From a virus (taxonomy: Duplodnaviria; Heunggongvirae; Uroviricota; Caudoviricetes), in IMG/VR virus record IMGVR_UViG_2531839103_000002: a DNA stretch of 4,165 nucleotides. One strand, 5' to 3'. Of this stretch, positions 515 to 4,165 are shown piece after piece (positions within the stretch are counted from its first letter, which is position 1; every line of letters begins with the position of its first letter). Under the pieces are notes generated by a model that did no database searches, had not been told where the DNA came from, and saw nothing but the letters and a program-made list of their open reading frames with translations. Position numbers and translations under genes: made by a program.

Positions 515-1231
515 ATGGAAACCGTATCTGACGCACTGAAAGCACTGAAAAGAGCCTCTTCACATGTGGTGGCAGCTCGCCTTGGAATTAGTCGTGAAGA
601 GGCTGTCAACGAACTGTGGAAACTGAAACGCCGTGGAGAAGCGGATAACAAGGGGGCGATATGGTGGCTGACTCAGGCTGGTGAAAGTGAACCGGTGTCA
701 CCGGTACCGAAAGTGACGGCGCAAATGCTGACAGAGGCGATTGAACAACATGGCCCACAAACGGCGGATGAACTGGCATTGATGTTCGGAATTACCTCCC
801 GCCGGGCGAATTCATCGCTGGCAATGGCAATCAGCAAAGGGTGTCTGATTCGCGTGAATCAGGATGGTAAATTTCGTTACTGCATACCGGGCGTTGATTT
901 ACCGGCAGAGCCGAAAGCAGCATCCGTAGCTGAAACGGAGGGTAAAGCCCTTCCTCAGCCAGCTGGTGTTGCGTTACCAGTCCAGGAAACGGCTGCACAG
1001 GAAGAAATTAAAACAGAAGCGGTGGAGGACATTGTGAAGTTGCAGCAATCGTTCACTGAAGCGAAAGCAGATGACCTGATTCTACCATCGCTGCATGTGG
1101 CTAACCGCGAGCTGCGCCGGGCGAAAAGTAATGTTCAGAAGTGGGAGCGAGTCTGTGCTGCGCTACGGGAACTGAACAAACACAGGGATATTCTCCGGGA
1201 TATTACCGCCACCAGAGAGCAGCAGCGGTGA
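515..1231 (+). CDS. Hypothetical phage protein; two N-terminal segments look like winged-helix/HTH folds, followed by a Pro/Ala/Glu-rich linker and a helical C-terminus
   Basis: ATG 515 is preceded by GGAGG (502-506) at 8 nt spacing; the ORF track's 497 start is a TTG without a better RBS. Stop TGA is at 1229-1231. It sits 33 nt after the P-like gene in the same orientation. The fold assignment is by eye from [31 protein letters not shown] and [32 protein letters not shown]. Confidence 0.7.
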
Positions 1232-1545
1232 GTGGCTGGAAGAAGTGGCGCTGGGCTGAAATCCTGATACTCCGGCAGTGTGCGGGAACGATGAGAGTCG
1301 AAAGCATCGGTTATCTGATTGGCCGTAGTGAGTCAGCCGTCAGGACGAAAGCGCGGGAACTGGGTATCAGCATGATGTTACGGGGTGATTATCACCAGTC
1401 AGCCAAATGTTCACAGCGTGATATTGAGCTGGCGTGGCAACTGCATCAGCGTGGTGTACCCCGACGGGAAATTGCCGAAAAGTTTGGGATGAAGTTGGGC
1501 GCAGTGAATAACTACGTTTATTTCGACAGGAGGGTTCAGGAGTGA
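1228..1545 (+). CDS. Putative small HTH DNA-binding protein (GcrA-like / NinH-like helix-turn-helix pattern)
   Basis: GTG 1228 overlaps the upstream stop (GTGA, 1228-1231), implying translational coupling. Alternative in-frame starts are GTG 1141 (ORF track) and ATG 1291. Stop TGA is at 1543-1545. The segments [21 protein letters not shown] and [19 protein letters not shown] look like HTH motifs. The start codon is uncertain. Confidence 0.55.
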
Positions 1546-1844
1546 GGGTGAGGGTTTATATCGCCGGTCCGATGACGGGATATGAAAATTTTAACCGCGA
1601 GGCATTTCACAAAACGGAAGAGGTGCTGAAACGGGAAGGGCATACCGTTTTAAACCCGGCAGTACTTCCGGACGGGCTGACTCAGCCACACTACATGGAT
1701 ATTTGCATGGCAATGCTCCGTTGCGTGGATGCGGTTTACATGCTGAAAGGCTGGCAGCAGTCGGCAGGTGCAGGGGCTGAGCTGGCACTGGAGGAGAAAC
1801 CGGGCCATGCGGTGATTTTTCAGGAGGTGGGCAGTGAATATTGA
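1542..1844 (+). CDS. DUF4406 / nucleoside 2-deoxyribosyltransferase-like domain protein
   Basis: GTG 1542 overlaps the preceding stop (GTGA), with AGGAGG at 1527-1532 upstream. The N-terminal motif VYIAGPMTG followed by NFNR...F is the signature I associate with the nucleoside 2-deoxyribosyltransferase-like fold (DUF4406, PF14359). Stop TGA is at 1842-1844. Confidence 0.7.
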   Translation: MRVRVYIAGPMTGYENFNREAFHKTEEVLKREGHTVLNPAVLPDGLTQPHYMDICMAMLRCVDAVYMLKGWQQSAGAGAELALEEKPGHAVIFQEVGSEY

Positions 1845-2151
1845 CCCGGCGATAACGATTGATATGGCCCTGAACGCCGGCCTGGCACTTCTTGGTTATT
1901 TCTACATTATGTTCTGCAGCGGACGATGGCTGTCACTGTTGTTCATGAAAAAATGGAATAAACGCCGTAAGCAGGAGCAACGCCAGAAGGCAATGGATGC
2001 ATTTTTCGAAGCCTTCGGAATTGACGGCATGGAACCAGGGGATCCAGCTCGCGCAATCAGCAGAGGGGGTGTAGTAATCCTTGTATATCGGAGTGAAGAG
2101 AAAAATGACGATCACAAAACAACGTGTAGAAGAAATCATATCCCGCATTGA
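1834..2151 (+). CDS. Small predicted membrane protein (one N-terminal hydrophobic helix followed by a Lys/Arg-rich segment)
   Basis: GTG 1834 is preceded by AGGAGG (1822-1827) at 6 nt and overlaps the 3' end of the upstream gene by 11 nt. The hydrophobic stretch is ALNAGLALLGYFYIMFCSGRWLSLLF, followed by MKKWNKRRKQEQRQK. The 3' 47 nt overlap the next ORF, so the true C-terminus is uncertain. Confidence 0.5.
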   Translation: MNIDPAITIDMALNAGLALLGYFYIMFCSGRWLSLLFMKKWNKRRKQEQRQKAMDAFFEAFGIDGMEPGDPARAISRGGVVILVYRSEEKNDDHKTTCRRNHIPH

Positions 2152-3041: not shown

Positions 3042-3599
3042 ATGACCACTATTACCAAAGATCGACTGCTGACAATCCAGCATTGGCGCGAAACATACGG
3101 ACCGGGTAGCAACGTTGTGCTTCCAGCAGAAGAAGCGGAAGAGCTGGCACGGATTGCGCTGGCATCACTGGCAGCAGTATCGGATGAACGAGCAGCCTAT
3201 GAATTATTTATGGAGAAGCGTTTCGGAGAATCTGTAGATCGCCGCAGAGCAAAAAATGGCGATAGAGATTACATGGTATGGGATATGGCGCTTGGCTGGA
3301 TTATCTGGTGTCACCGCGCCGCCATGCTTCAGGCTGGAAACTTTCGGGAAAATAAGGGTTCGTCAACCAATAATTTTCGGATAATCTCGGAAACGTCAAC
3401 CAACTCTCCGGCAATCCCTGATGAGGTGTTGTCCGCAATCCTGAAGGTCGCCAGGCTTCGTGCAGATTTCGATGCTTCTGAAGTGGACAGGCGAGGTATC
3501 GGTAGTTGTCTGGATGAGGCCGAGCAAGAACTTATCGTTACCATTAACGAATACGCCAGTCAGATCGCAGTAGAAGCGACACAGGGGGAGAACCAATGA
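3042..3599 (+). CDS. Hypothetical phage protein (185 aa), function unknown
   Basis: ATG 3042 lies two nt after the upstream TAG, with an AAGGTGA RBS at 3028-3034. Stop TGA is at 3597-3599. I could not assign a family from the sequence. Confidence 0.65.
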   Translation: MTTITKDRLLTIQHWRETYGPGSNVVLPAEEAEELARIALASLAAVSDERAAYELFMEKRFGESVDRRRAKNGDRDYMVWDMALGWIIWCHRAAMLQAGNFRENKGSSTNNFRIISETSTNSPAIPDEVLSAILKVARLRADFDASEVDRRGIGSCLDEAEQELIVTINEYASQIAVEATQGENQ

Positions 3600-3887: not shown

Positions 3888-4056
3888 GGGTGCTTGAGGC
3901 TGTCTGCCTCGGGCATGCCACCGTAAGGCAGACAGAGAAAAGCCCCAGTTAACATTACGCGTCCTGCAAGACGCTTAACATTAATCTGAGGCCCAATCTA
4001 TGCTTCACAAACGTAGGTTAGCCTCTTACGCGCCGAAAGGCAAGGAGAAGCAGGTT
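3888..4056 (+). promoter_or_regulatory. hok mRNA 5' leader with structural elements, the Sok target region and a mok-like upstream start
   Basis: Hairpin GAGGC-TGTCT-GCCTC lies at 3896-3910. A perfect 9-bp inverted repeat CTGTCTGCC (3900-3908) / GGCAGACAG (3927-3935) offers a mutually exclusive pairing. ATG 4000 has a CTGAGG RBS-like sequence at 3985-3990. The hok RBS AAGGAG is at 4042-4047. The overall order resembles the R1 hok leader as I remember it. Confidence 0.55.
3938..4008 (-). ncRNA. sok: Predicted Sok-like antisense RNA (antitoxin of the hok/sok type I TA system)
   Basis: On the minus strand there is a -35 TTGCCT (plus-strand 4038-4043), a 17-nt spacer and a -10 TAACCT (plus-strand 4015-4020), giving a start near 4008. 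The transcript would be antisense to the leader around ATG 4000 and would contain the stem GCGTC/GACGC (plus-strand 3958-3974) followed by a pyrimidine/U-rich tail. The ends are approximate. Confidence 0.45.
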
Positions 4057-4165
4057 ATGAAGCAGCAAAAGGCGATGTTAATCGCCCTGATCGTCATCTG
4101 TTTAACCGTCATAGTGACGGCACTGGTAACGAGGAAAGACCTCTGCGAGGTACGAATCCGAACCG
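4057..4165 (+). CDS. hokD: Hok/Gef-family type I toxin, 3'-truncated by the window edge; the first 36 residues match HokD/RelF as I recall it
   Basis: ATG 4057 has AAGGAG (4042-4047) 9 nt upstream. The translation is MKQQKAMLIALIVICLTVIVTALVTRKDLCEVRIRT, with the transmembrane helix and TRKDLCE motif characteristic of Hok/Gef. An in-frame ATG at 4000 could give a 19-residue N-terminal extension, so an automated annotation might call 4000 as the start. Confidence 0.8.
   Translation, partial: MKQQKAMLIALIVICLTVIVTALVTRKDLCEVRIRT

What the first reader, a model, noticed from the sequence alone, without database searches (positions are those of the whole stretch)
1542..1844. DUF4406 / nucleoside 2-deoxyribosyltransferase-like protein inside the phage early operon
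The YIAGPMTG N-terminal motif places this 100-aa protein in the nucleoside 2-deoxyribosyltransferase-like superfamily, whose characterised members act on deoxynucleosides and deoxynucleotides (transferases and the DNPH1/Rcl-type N-glycosidases). In a phage early operon such an enzyme could alter nucleotide pools or hydrolyse modified or signalling nucleotides, which would fit a counter-defence or DNA-modification salvage role. The family's function in phages is, to my knowledge, not established.
Basis: partly seen in the sequence, partly recalled or inferred. Interest (0 to 1): 0.5.

Follow-up and report, generated by a model that had tools for sequence, protein, structure and literature searches.

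The report
Small prophage DUF4406 nucleotide-glycosidase-like gene
This is an already annotated 100-residue prophage protein of the widespread but uncharacterised DUF4406 family; it is a stripped-down relative of enzymes that cut the base off deoxynucleotides, and its real activity and role in the phage are untested.

Summary
ORF 1542-1844 (+) encodes a 100-aa protein that matches Pfam DUF4406 end to end (E 2e-33). RefSeq already annotates it as WP_001310212.1. It lies in the rightward operon of a Rac-like prophage of E. coli O157:H7.

A confident AlphaFold model has the NDT fold. Closest solved structures:

Three independent alignments give the same residue equivalences to DNPH1:
- Tyr6 = Tyr24.
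- Ser74-x-Gly76-x3-Glu80 = Ser98...Glu104. Ser and Gly bind the phosphate; Glu is the nucleophile and is invariant in 84 of 84 diverse relatives.
- Cys55 takes the place of the general-acid Asp80.

The protein ends after strand 4, so it lacks the C-terminal extension that completes the neighbouring active site in NDT and DNPH1.

My best guess is a minimal deoxynucleoside-5'-monophosphate N-glycosidase, or a phosphodeoxyribosyl transferase, that alters nucleotide pools. This is inference only.

I found no support for a counter-defence role: no fixed neighbour gene, no PADLOC match, no literature. The family is common (about 24% of complete E. coli genomes). This allele carries two unusual substitutions, A84E and L87P. 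The finding is ordinary; interest is low to moderate.

The parts
1542..1844 (+). CDS of the 100-aa DUF4406 / NDT-fold protein (an alternative start is the GTG at 1548)
   Evidence: ORF list. Pfam PF14359 E 2e-33. RefSeq WP_001310212.1 at the same coordinates. dN/dS 0.09-0.25 against diverged homologues.
1528..1533 (+). AGGAGG Shine-Dalgarno-like sequence 8 nt upstream of the GTG at 1542. A second AGGAG at 1538-1542 could serve the GTG at 1548.
   Evidence: Read directly from the sequence.
1557..1580 (+). YIAGPMTG motif (residues 6-13): end of strand 1 plus the Gly-rich loop. Tyr6 aligns with catalytic-triad Tyr24 of DNPH1 and Tyr7 of L. leichmannii NDT. Met11 aligns with base-stacking Ile29 of DNPH1.
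   Evidence: Model secondary structure. Alignments. Column counts: Y 73, F 10 of 84. DNPH1 residue roles from PMC10603095.
1593..1598 (+). Asn18-Arg19, a family-specific conserved pair at the start of helix 1. Candidate phosphate ligand (inference only).
   Evidence: N in 74 of 84 and R/K in 76 of 84 sequences. No equivalent in DNPH1 or MilB at the aligned positions.
1650..1679 (+). LNPAvLPDGL loop (residues 37-46) between strand 2 and helix 2, nearly invariant in the family. It occupies the place of the base-recognition/lid element of DNPH1 (residues 54-70). Pro39 aligns with the Pro that follows strand 2 in T. brucei NDT.
   Evidence: Conservation. Alignment to 2a0k. The lid's role in DNPH1 is from PMC10603095.
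1704..1706 (+). Cys55 (TGC), at the position of the general-acid/base-contacting Asp of the superfamily: Asp80 in DNPH1, Asp72 in LlNDT, Asp78 in MilB, Asn77 in DmtZ.
   Evidence: HMM alignment to BlsM, BcmB and MilB. hhalign to the DNPH1 family and to LlNDT. Weak hhalign to Wayne DmtZ. Column counts: C 63, D 11, A 5, T 2 of 84.
1761..1781 (+). Ser74-Ala-Gly76-Ala-Gly-Ala-Glu80 motif at the strand 3 / helix 3 junction. Ser74 and Gly76 align with the 5'-phosphate ligands of DNPH1 (Ser98) and MilB (Ser97, Gly99). Glu80 aligns with the covalent nucleophile (Glu104, Glu98, Glu103).
   Evidence: S in 83 of 84, G in 84 of 84, E in 84 of 84. Alignments. Residue roles from PMC10603095 and PMC4081090.
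1791..1802 (+). Allele-specific substitutions Glu84 (family: Ala in 80 of 84) and Pro87 (family: mostly Leu) in and just after helix 3.
   Evidence: Column counts. Only 1 of 64 unique homologous genes carries E84/P87, and it is the one identical to the window.
1228..1545 (+). Upstream gene: small HTH protein (PHROG 323, 'transcriptional regulator, D5-like'). Its TGA overlaps the GTG of the DUF4406 gene (GTGA).
1834..2151 (+). Downstream gene: DUF4752 protein. Its start overlaps the last 11 nt of the DUF4406 gene.

Best explanation
The gene encodes a stand-alone, minimal member of the nucleoside 2-deoxyribosyltransferase (NDT) superfamily, Pfam DUF4406. It is co-transcribed, and probably translationally coupled, with other small accessory genes downstream of the replication genes of a Rac-like lambdoid prophage.

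Shown:
- Family membership.
- A predicted four-strand Rossmann-like NDT fold.
- Conservation of Tyr6, Ser74, Gly76 and Glu80.
- Purifying selection across the family.

Inferred:
- Glu80 attacks C1' of a 2'-deoxyribonucleotide and forms a covalent deoxyribosyl-5-phosphate-enzyme ester while the base leaves. Tyr6 positions Glu80 and favours 2'-deoxy sugars. Ser74 and Gly76, possibly with Arg19, hold a 5'-phosphate.
- The intermediate is then resolved by water (a DNPH1/Rcl-like dNMP N-glycosidase) or by another base (a DmtZ-like phosphodeoxyribosyl transferase).
- Cys55, or Asp in a minority of relatives, sits where the other enzymes have the acid that protonates the leaving base.
- The biological effect would be a change in the dNMP/base pool during prophage induction or infection. 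The specific substrate and the benefit to the phage are unknown.
For: Family membership: Pfam PF14359 E 2e-33 over the full length; PHROG 355.

Sequence link to characterised enzymes: a profile of 73 diverse DUF4406 sequences hits T. brucei NDT (E 1.2e-4), BlsM (0.0077), L. mexicana NDT (0.0088) and BcmB (0.018) in the PDB, with residue-level alignments.

Residue equivalences: hhalign against a DNPH1 family alignment (E 0.0025, 88 columns) gives Y6=Y24, M11=I29, Y51=I76, C55=D80, S74=S98, G76=G100, E80=E104. The same register is found against LlNDT.

Conservation: Glu80 84/84, Gly76 84/84, Ser74 83/84, Tyr6 73/84 plus 10 Phe.

Residue roles in the characterised enzymes:
- Triad Y24/D80/E104, and phosphate bound by S98 (PMC10603095).
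- MilB S97/G99 bind phosphate, and F17Y switches preference from ribo to deoxyribo (PMC4081090 and PMC10603095).
- NDTs have Asp, not Ser, at the Ser74 position (D92 of LlNDT; 'EPDCG' of T. brucei NDT).

Precedents:
- The phage NDT-like enzyme DmtZ is a dAMP hydrolase/transferase with Asn at the Asp position and uncharged residues at the phosphate pocket (PMC12884076).
- An actinophage DUF4406 protein passes the gathering threshold of both PF14359 and PF05014.

Selection: dN/dS 0.09-0.25.
Against: - No biochemical data exist for any DUF4406 protein.
- The general-acid Asp is replaced by Cys here. That position is variable in the family (C/D/A/T/N/G), so the chemistry may differ or the position may not matter.
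- The protein ends after strand 4. It lacks the C-terminal extension that supplies Ser128' (DNPH1) or the C-terminal carboxylate (NDT) to the partner active site.
- The Arg that binds phosphate in MilB (R23) aligns with Thr12.
- All residue equivalences rest on weak profile alignments (E 1e-4 to 2.5e-3) and a predicted structure. I could not measure distances in the model.
- This allele has A84E and L87P at otherwise conserved positions and sits in a decaying prophage (pseudogenes nearby). This copy may be impaired.
- The window protein itself does not reach PF05014.
Confidence: 0.5

Rival explanations
1. It is a true nucleoside 2-deoxyribosyltransferase, as PHROGs and many GenBank records call it. 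It would swap bases between free deoxynucleosides for salvage.
For: - The PHROG 355 label.
- The best PDB sequence and Foldseek hit is T. brucei NDT, with 'IYIAGP' identical.
- Conserved Pro39 aligns with the Pro after strand 2 that is said to be typical of transferases (PMC12884076).
- A phage PF05014 NDT with dA-preferring transferase activity exists (bioRxiv 10.1101/2025.10.22.683976).
Against: - The residue that binds the 5'-OH in NDTs (Asp92 in LlNDT, Asp in T. brucei NDT) is Ser in 83 of 84 DUF4406 sequences, as in the 5'-phosphate-specific enzymes.
- The C-terminal segment whose terminal carboxylate completes the NDT active site is absent.
- The window protein does not hit PF05014.
- Two of four phage NDTs tested in that preprint had no transferase activity, so the label is not predictive.
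Confidence: 0.15
2. It is a counter-defence protein. It would destroy or sequester a nucleotide-derived immune signal or NAD-derived molecule (cADPR isomers, cyclic oligonucleotides), or rebalance pools against nucleotide-depleting defences.
For: - NDT-like effectors are used by retron Ec86 to deplete adenine derivatives (statement in bioRxiv 10.1101/2024.10.10.617714).
- The gene is a small accessory gene in a mosaic early region.
- The family is very widespread in phages.
Against: - No direct evidence of any kind.
- No PADLOC match.
- No conserved neighbour and no recurrent fusion.
- No mention of DUF4406 in the anti-defence literature I searched.
- The conserved Tyr/Ser/Glu constellation is that of mononucleotide glycosidases, not of TIR NADases.
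Confidence: 0.1
3. This particular copy is a functionally decaying allele in a defective prophage. The family may be enzymatic, but the window's protein is impaired or inactive.
For: - It is the only one of 64 unique homologous genes with Glu84 (family: Ala in 80 of 84) and Pro87 (Leu).
- dN/dS rises to 0.58-0.66 against its nearest relatives, compared with 0.09-0.25 against diverged ones.
- The prophage carries truncated exonuclease, RusA and DUF6645 genes.
Against: - The reading frame is intact.
- All putative catalytic residues are retained.
- The model is confident through residues 81-90 (pLDDT 84).
- The allele is fixed at >= 99% identity in 278 complete genomes.
- The nearest-relative comparison rests on about a dozen substitutions.
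Confidence: 0.15
4. It is a non-catalytic nucleotide-binding or regulatory protein that only keeps the NDT scaffold.
For: - The closest solved structure (1T1J, DUF1937) has no known activity.
- The canonical Asp is missing.
- The fold is truncated.
Against: An absolutely invariant Glu at the nucleophile position, together with conserved Ser/Gly and Tyr across relatives only 40-60% identical, is hard to explain without catalysis.
Confidence: 0.07

Closest known systems
Pfam DUF4406 (PF14359) / PHROG 355
   Same: Full-length match far above threshold. All family motifs are present.
   Different: Only the allele-specific A84E and L87P substitutions. The family itself has no characterised member.
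DUF1937 protein PA1492-type (PDB 1T1J)
   Different: Only 18% identity. A different Pfam family, below its threshold here. Its function is also unknown, so it says nothing about activity.
DNPH1 / Rcl (2'-deoxynucleoside 5'-phosphate N-hydrolase; hmdUMP hydrolase)
   Same: Same fold. Tyr on strand 1. The S-x-G-x-G-x-E motif, with the phosphate-binding Ser and the nucleophilic Glu, is in identical register.
   Different: - Asp80 is replaced by Cys55.
- No helical lid carrying Glu55/His56.
- No C-terminal extension carrying Ser128'.
- About 20% identity.
- 100 aa against about 145 aa for the catalytic core.
MilB / BlsM / BcmB (CMP and hydroxymethyl-CMP N-glycosidases)
   Different: Those enzymes have Phe on strand 1 (ribose preference), Asp78, and Arg23 as phosphate/hydroxymethyl ligand. 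Here the residues are Tyr6, Cys55 and Thr12.
Class I/II nucleoside 2-deoxyribosyltransferases (L. leichmannii NDT, T. brucei NDT; PF05014)
   Same: Fold, the 'IYIAGP' start, the Pro after strand 2, and the nucleophilic Glu.
   Different: - Ser instead of the 5'-OH-binding Asp.
- Cys instead of Asp72.
- No C-terminal tail reaching into the partner site.
- No PF05014 hit for this protein.
DmtZ of Z-genome actinophages (dAMP hydrolase / deoxyribose-5-phosphate transferase, PMC12884076)
   Same: A phage-encoded NDT-superfamily enzyme with a non-Asp residue (Asn77) at the acid position, Tyr6, a Glu nucleophile and an uncharged phosphate pocket. The Wayne DmtZ domain shows an S-x-G-x3-E-type motif in the same register, though the alignment is weak.
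   Different: Not a DUF4406 member: no Pfam hit on the Wayne DmtZ domain. It is longer, is linked or fused to a dUTPase-like dATPase, and occurs next to purZ. The window's prophage has none of these genes.
Retron Ec86 (Eco1) NDT-like effector and TIR/ThsB domains
   Different: No sequence similarity detected by the PADLOC models. Those proteins are host defence effectors with partner components. This one is a solitary phage gene.

Membership tests
Pfam DUF4406 (PF14359) | Whole-protein HMM score above the curated gathering threshold, over the whole domain | tested here: met
   115.1 bits against a cut-off of 22, E 2e-33, profile positions 2-90 of 91.
Pfam DUF4406 (PF14359) | Family-conserved motifs: YIAGPMxG, NRxxF, LNPAxLPxGL, YMxIC, GWxxSxGAxxE | tested here: met
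   All are present. The exceptions lie outside these motifs: E84 for the 95%-conserved Ala, and P87 for Leu.
NDT-like superfamily (fold level) | Rossmann-like alpha/beta fold superposable on NDT, DNPH1 and MilB | tested here: met
NDT-like superfamily (catalytic triad) | Glu nucleophile at the start of the helix after strand 3 | tested here: met
   Glu80 is invariant in 84 of 84 sequences. It aligns with E104 (DNPH1), E98 (LlNDT) and the Glu of BlsM, BcmB, MilB and T. brucei NDT.
NDT-like superfamily (catalytic triad) | Tyr (Phe in ribo-specific enzymes) at the end of strand 1 | tested here: met
   Tyr6 aligns with Y24 and Y7. Column counts: Y 73, F 10 of 84.
NDT-like superfamily (catalytic triad) | Asp in helix 2 acting as general acid / base contact (D72, D80, D78) | tested here: not met
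   Cys55 occupies this column in three independent alignments. Family counts: C 63, D 11, A 5, T 2 of 84. DmtZ shows that Asn is tolerated at this position.
NDT-like superfamily | Active site completed by a C-terminal segment of the partner subunit (Tyr157 carboxylate in NDT; Ser128' extension in DNPH1) | tested here: not met
PF05014 Nuc_deoxyrib_tr (true nucleoside transferases) | HMM match above threshold | tested here: not met
   No PF05014 hit at E <= 0.1 for the window protein. An actinophage DUF4406 protein just reaches it: 29.2 bits against 28.8.
PF05014 Nuc_deoxyrib_tr (true nucleoside transferases) | Asp that binds the free 5'-OH of the nucleoside (D92 of LlNDT) | tested here: not met
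   Ser74 is in that column, in 83 of 84 family sequences.
DNPH1 / MilB-type nucleotide N-glycosidases | Ser (plus backbone Gly) six residues before the Glu, binding the 5'-phosphate | tested here: met
   S74-A-G76-A-G-A-E80 against S98-L-G-V-G-Y-E104 and S-P-G-T-H-V-E. Residue roles are from PMC10603095 and PMC4081090.
DNPH1 / MilB-type nucleotide N-glycosidases | Second phosphate ligand (Ser128' in DNPH1, or Arg23 in MilB) | tested here: inconclusive
   Neither is present at the aligned positions: Thr12 is there, and there is no C-terminal extension. Conserved Asn18-Arg19 might substitute, but this could not be checked without model coordinates.
DNPH1 / MilB-type nucleotide N-glycosidases | Hydrolysis of (d)NMP to base plus (deoxy)ribose 5-phosphate | not testable with these tools
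   Needs an enzyme assay.
Known defence-system proteins, including retron NDT effectors (PADLOC-DB) | HMM match to a catalogued defence-system protein | tested here: not met
   No PADLOC family at E <= 1.
Phage anti-defence proteins | Experimentally shown inhibition of a defence system, or homology to such a protein | not tested
   No anti-defence profile library was available. Literature searches found nothing linking DUF4406 to counter-defence.

The most novel reading that the evidence does not exclude
DUF4406 proteins are a distinct, minimal class of phage N-glycosidases that use Glu80 with a Cys (not Asp) partner and no C-terminal extension. Their natural substrate would be a non-canonical or defence-related nucleotide rather than an ordinary dNMP: for example a damaged or modified dNMP produced when host or phage DNA is degraded, or a nucleotide-derived immune signal. 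That would make them a widespread, unrecognised pool-sanitising or counter-defence module of temperate phages.
Probability: 0.1. Interest if true: 0.7.

Novelty: already known. Interest (0 to 1): 0.3.

Why it matters
DUF4406 is large and phage-centred:
- 9087 clusters at 50% identity.
- 310 GenBank phage records.
- DNA relatives in 1315 of 5426 complete E. coli genomes.

No member has been characterised, and GenBank names for the same family conflict: NDT, MazG-like pyrophosphatase, dCMP deaminase.

If the predicted dNMP-directed glycosidase or transferase activity were confirmed, it would:
- fix the annotation of thousands of phage genes;
- add a minimal, Cys-containing variant to the NDT enzyme superfamily, which is of interest for nucleoside biocatalysis;
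- show that ordinary temperate coliphages, not only phages with modified genomes, manipulate deoxynucleotide pools.

As it stands, the finding is a correct annotation of a known family with no new biology demonstrated.

Tried and rejected
1. Direct sequence search of the PDB with the single protein and with a shallow alignment found nothing relevant. Only a 73-sequence diverse profile reached NDT, BlsM and BcmB.
2. hhalign of the family against single DNPH1, LlNDT and DmtZ sequences gave the expected register but no significance.
3. Rosetta-stone search for fusions, by four routes:
   - 45 long relatives scanned with Pfam and PHROGs gave no recurrent partner.
   - The apparent 'MazG-like' and 'dCMP deaminase' partners in actinophage records are 122-124-aa single-domain DUF4406 proteins that are misnamed.
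   - Milly gp55 has an N-terminal 150 residues with no Pfam domain.
   - A DUF5664 protein does not hit PHROG 12019.
   - Two BFVD entries named 'dATP/dGTP diphosphohydrolase N-terminal domain-containing' could be real fusions. I could not retrieve their sequences.
4. Gene-neighbourhood analysis of 79 related viral loci found no conserved partner.
5. NCBIfam and PADLOC gave no hits.
6. Literature searches for DUF4406, PF14359 and DUF1937 returned only incidental mentions or nothing. Two broader searches were uninformative.
7. The DNPH1 homologue search returned almost only mammalian orthologues, so the comparison profile was shallow.
8. Promoter/terminator, repeat and antisense-ORF checks showed nothing beyond chance within the gene.
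9. I could not read model coordinates, so spatial clustering of Tyr6, Cys55, Ser74 and Glu80 was not verified.
Full report
**1. The observation**

The window has an ORF at 1542-1844 on the + strand, with a GTG start and 100 codons. Residues 6-13 read YIAGPMTG. The protein matches Pfam PF14359 (DUF4406) with E 2e-33 and 115 bits against a cut-off of 22, over profile positions 2-90 of 91. It also matches PHROG 355, labelled 'nucleoside 2-deoxyribosyltransferase', with E 4e-43. NCBIfam and PADLOC give nothing. The three antisense ORFs that overlap the gene have no Pfam match. A second in-frame GTG at 1548, preceded by AGGAG, would give an N-terminus closer to most homologues, so the exact start is uncertain by two codons.

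**2. Where it is**

The window is 99% identical to a prophage integrated next to potC in E. coli O157:H7 genomes. In strain SS52 the gene order is: integrase, excisionase, racR repressor, an HTH (cro-like) gene, YdaT, a DnaT-like protein, replication protein P, DUF1627, a small HTH protein, DUF4406 (WP_001310212.1), DUF4752, a hypothetical protein, Ead/Ea22-like, a hypothetical protein, DUF551, hokD, and then the lysis and head genes.

This is therefore the rightward, replication-side operon of a Rac-like lambdoid prophage. The gene sits in the position of lambda's nin region.

The DUF1627, HTH and DUF4406 genes are joined by GTGA start/stop overlaps, and the DUF4752 gene starts 11 nt before the DUF4406 stop. 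The consensus scan finds no more promoter-like or terminator-like sites in the window than in shuffled sequence. The prophage carries truncated exonuclease, RusA and DUF6645 genes, so it is decaying.

**3. How common it is**

- A scan of 1.84 billion cluster representatives finds 9087 relatives at E <= 0.001.
- tblastn finds the domain in 310 GenBank phage records, mostly from Vibrio, Arthrobacter, Aeromonas, Mycobacterium, Pseudomonas and enterobacteria.
- DNA relatives occur in 1315 of 5426 complete E. coli genomes. Of these, 278 are at >= 99% identity, and 99 places are on plasmids.
- Full-text searches for DUF4406 and PF14359 return three incidental mentions and none, respectively.

I found no experimental work on any member of the family.

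**4. Structure**

An AlphaFold2 model built on 26 homologues is confident (mean pLDDT 85.8, pTM 0.81). Its topology is b1(4-8)-a1(19-31)-b2(35-37)-a2(48-60)-b3(64-67)-a3(75-85)-b4(90-93).

The NDT-like fold assignment is therefore supported. The targets are 125-165 residues long, and only their first 90-97 or so residues are matched. The DUF4406 protein stops just after strand 4. It lacks the last strand/helix segment that, in NDT and DNPH1, reaches into the partner subunit's active site.

**5. Catalytic residues**

I built a set of 84 relatives, all less than 62% identical to each other, and counted each column. A 73-sequence version of this set is alignment A3.

| Position | Counts in 84 sequences |
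|---|---|
| Glu80 | 84 |
| Gly76 | 84 |
| Phe22 | 84 |
| Gly9 | 84 |
| Ser74 | 83 |
| Tyr6 | 73, plus 10 Phe |
| Asn18 | 74 |
| Arg19 | 67, plus 9 Lys |
| Position 55 | Cys 63, Asp 11, Ala 5, Thr 2 |
| Asp53 | 39 (conserved only among enterobacterial members) |

The A3 profile hits PDB sequences of T. brucei NDT (E 1.2e-4), BlsM (0.0077), L. mexicana NDT (0.0088), BcmB (0.018) and MilB (0.14). The printed alignments show three things:
- 'IYIAGP' lies on the equivalent strand-1 motif.
- Cys55 lies on the Asp of 'PLDQLEI', 'KLDYDAI' and 'RLDHDEI' in the three CMP glycosidases.
- S74-x-G76-x3-E80 lies on 'SPGTHVE'.

hhalign of A3 against a 12-sequence DNPH1 alignment (E 0.0025, 88 columns) gives Y6=Y24, M11=I29, Y51=I76, C55=D80, S74=S98, G76=G100 and E80=E104. 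Local hhalign against L. leichmannii NDT gives Y6=Y7, C55=D72, S74=D92 and E80=E98. Each alignment is weak on its own, but all three agree in register and fit the predicted secondary structure.

**6. What these residues do in characterised enzymes**

- In DNPH1 the triad is Y24/D80/E104. E104 forms the covalent glycosyl-enzyme intermediate and D80 protonates the leaving base. The phosphate is held by S98 and by S128' from the partner subunit's C-terminal extension. I29 and I76 sandwich the base (PMC10603095).
- In MilB, S97, G99 and R23 bind the phosphate and D78 contacts both ribose and base. Phe17 in place of Tyr gives ribose preference, and F17Y reverses it (PMC4081090 and PMC10603095).
- True nucleoside transferases carry Asp where these enzymes have Ser.
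- The phage enzyme DmtZ is a dAMP hydrolase and deoxyribose-5-phosphate transferase. Its triad is Tyr6/Asn77/Glu103 and its phosphate pocket is uncharged. N77D lowers its activity rather than raising it (PMC12884076).

**7. Inference on mechanism**

The DUF4406 protein keeps the nucleophile (Glu80), the Tyr that positions it and disfavours a 2'-OH (Tyr6), the Ser/Gly phosphate ligands typical of the 5'-phosphate-specific branch (Ser74, Gly76), and hydrophobic base-stacking positions (Met11, Tyr51).

It does not keep the Asp, which is Cys55 here. It also lacks the second phosphate ligand and the lid elements. In their place it has a nearly invariant LNPAxLPxGL loop and an Asn18-Arg19 pair.

The most economical reading is a minimal N-glycosidase acting on 2'-deoxynucleoside 5'-monophosphates through a covalent Glu80 intermediate. 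The intermediate would be resolved by water, or as in DmtZ by another base. Which base it prefers cannot be read from the sequence. I put this at about 0.5.

The fold assignment and family membership rest on tool results, the fold on a predicted model. Everything about chemistry and substrate is inferred.

**8. Is there evidence for a counter-defence or modification-salvage role?**

I found none.
- PADLOC has no match.
- In 79 related viral loci, the gene upstream falls into 9 unrelated clusters and the gene downstream into 21, usually joined by a 4-nt overlap. The gene therefore moves as a single-gene cassette with no fixed partner.
- Among 45 long relatives no second domain recurs, in Pfam or in PHROGs.
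- GenBank labels that look like informative partners ('MazG-like pyrophosphatase', 'deoxycytidylate deaminase') belong to 122-124-aa proteins that are just DUF4406.
- Mycobacteriophage Milly gp55 is a real two-part protein, but its N-terminal 150 residues match nothing. It has Asp at position 55.
- Two BFVD models with 32-39% identity are named 'dATP/dGTP diphosphohydrolase N-terminal domain-containing protein'. If they are genuine fusions, they would parallel the DmtZ-DutZ fusion and support a dNMP substrate. I could not retrieve their sequences to check.
- The prophage has no purZ, no dUTPase-like gene and no DNA-modification genes near this gene.

**9. This allele**

Pairwise dN/dS between the window gene and 63 other unique homologous genes is 0.09-0.25 where dS is 0.3-0.9, so the family is under purifying selection. 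Against the nearest relatives (dS about 0.06) it is 0.58-0.66. The window allele is the only one with Glu84 (Ala in 80 of 84 diverse relatives) and Pro87 (Leu or Met elsewhere). Given the pseudogenes in the same prophage, this copy may be under relaxed constraint. The frame and all putative catalytic residues are intact, and the allele is fixed in the O157:H7 lineage.

**10. Comparison with what is known, and verdict**

The protein is a member of DUF4406: the membership features were tested and met. It has the NDT-superfamily fold. It fails two features of the canonical enzymes, the Asp and the C-terminal partner-site segment, and it fails the PF05014 model, so it should not be filed as a nucleoside 2-deoxyribosyltransferase. 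It most resembles the nucleotide-specific hydrolase branch (DNPH1, MilB, DmtZ) in its phosphate-site Ser.

The 'Asp conserved' expectation is wrong. The biological role it proposed is untested speculation. Its statement that phage functions are unknown holds for DUF4406, but no longer for the superfamily.

The object is already annotated and belongs to a catalogued family. What remains open is its biochemistry, which is directly testable. Interest is 0.3.

Noticed in passing
window 3888-4165: A hok/sok type I toxin-antitoxin locus follows the accessory-gene block. Rfam 'sok' matches at 3888-4062 (114.9 bits). RefSeq places hokD at a position equivalent to window 4095 onward, so it is cut by the window end. 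An inverted repeat at 3889-3946 lies inside the locus.
   Followed up: partly
window 1791-1802 (residues 84 and 87): The O157:H7 allele has Glu84 and Pro87, where 63 other unique homologous genes have Ala (one Val) and Leu or Met. dN/dS against the nearest relatives is 0.58-0.66, compared with 0.09-0.25 against diverged ones. This may mean relaxed constraint in a decaying prophage.
   Followed up: partly
L003 3004-3372; L005 2980-3354; L004 3157-3285: In GenBank actinophage and Pseudomonas phage records the same single-domain DUF4406 protein is named 'MazG-like pyrophosphatase', 'deoxycytidylate deaminase' or 'nucleoside deoxyribosyltransferase'. The first two names have no support from Pfam.
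   Followed up: yes
BFVD entries A0A6J5LQ71 (216 aa) and A0A6J5S4N9 (462 aa), not in the window: Viral proteins with a DUF4406-like domain (39% and 32% identity) carry the UniProt name 'dATP/dGTP diphosphohydrolase N-terminal domain-containing protein'. This would be a possible fusion of a dNTP pyrophosphohydrolase with the glycosidase-like domain, analogous to DmtZ-DutZ. The sequences could not be retrieved.
   Followed up: no
window 1228-1231, 1542-1545, 1834-1844: Three consecutive gene junctions (DUF1627/HTH, HTH/DUF4406, DUF4406/DUF4752) overlap: GTGA, GTGA and 11 nt. In related loci the DUF4406 gene overlaps unrelated upstream genes by 4 nt (one base shared between stop and start codon) in most of the upstream gene clusters.
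   Followed up: partly
window 3042-3599: The 185-aa ORF has no Pfam hit here. The corresponding gene in strain SS52 is annotated as DUF551-containing and is 30 nt longer. Matches to Stx1 phages stop at about 3417. This suggests a mosaic joint inside the gene that swaps the C-terminal domain. One long DUF4406 relative carries a DUF551 domain.
   Followed up: no
window 515-1231: The DUF1627 protein (E 2e-81) has weak winged-helix-like hits (MarR_2, HTH_Crp_2, AlkZ-like) and a weak PHROG hit to Ren-like exclusion proteins. It occupies the position of ren/ydaW, directly after the P-like gene.
   Followed up: no
E. coli genome collection: 99 of 1626 places matching the DUF4406 gene are on plasmids, which may be phage-plasmids.
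   Followed up: no
L087 2048-2806 (Mycobacterium phage Milly gp55): A 252-aa protein with an unassigned 150-residue N-terminal region fused to a DUF4406 domain that has the canonical Asp at position 55. It defines PHROG 15484, labelled 'hydrolase'.
   Followed up: partly
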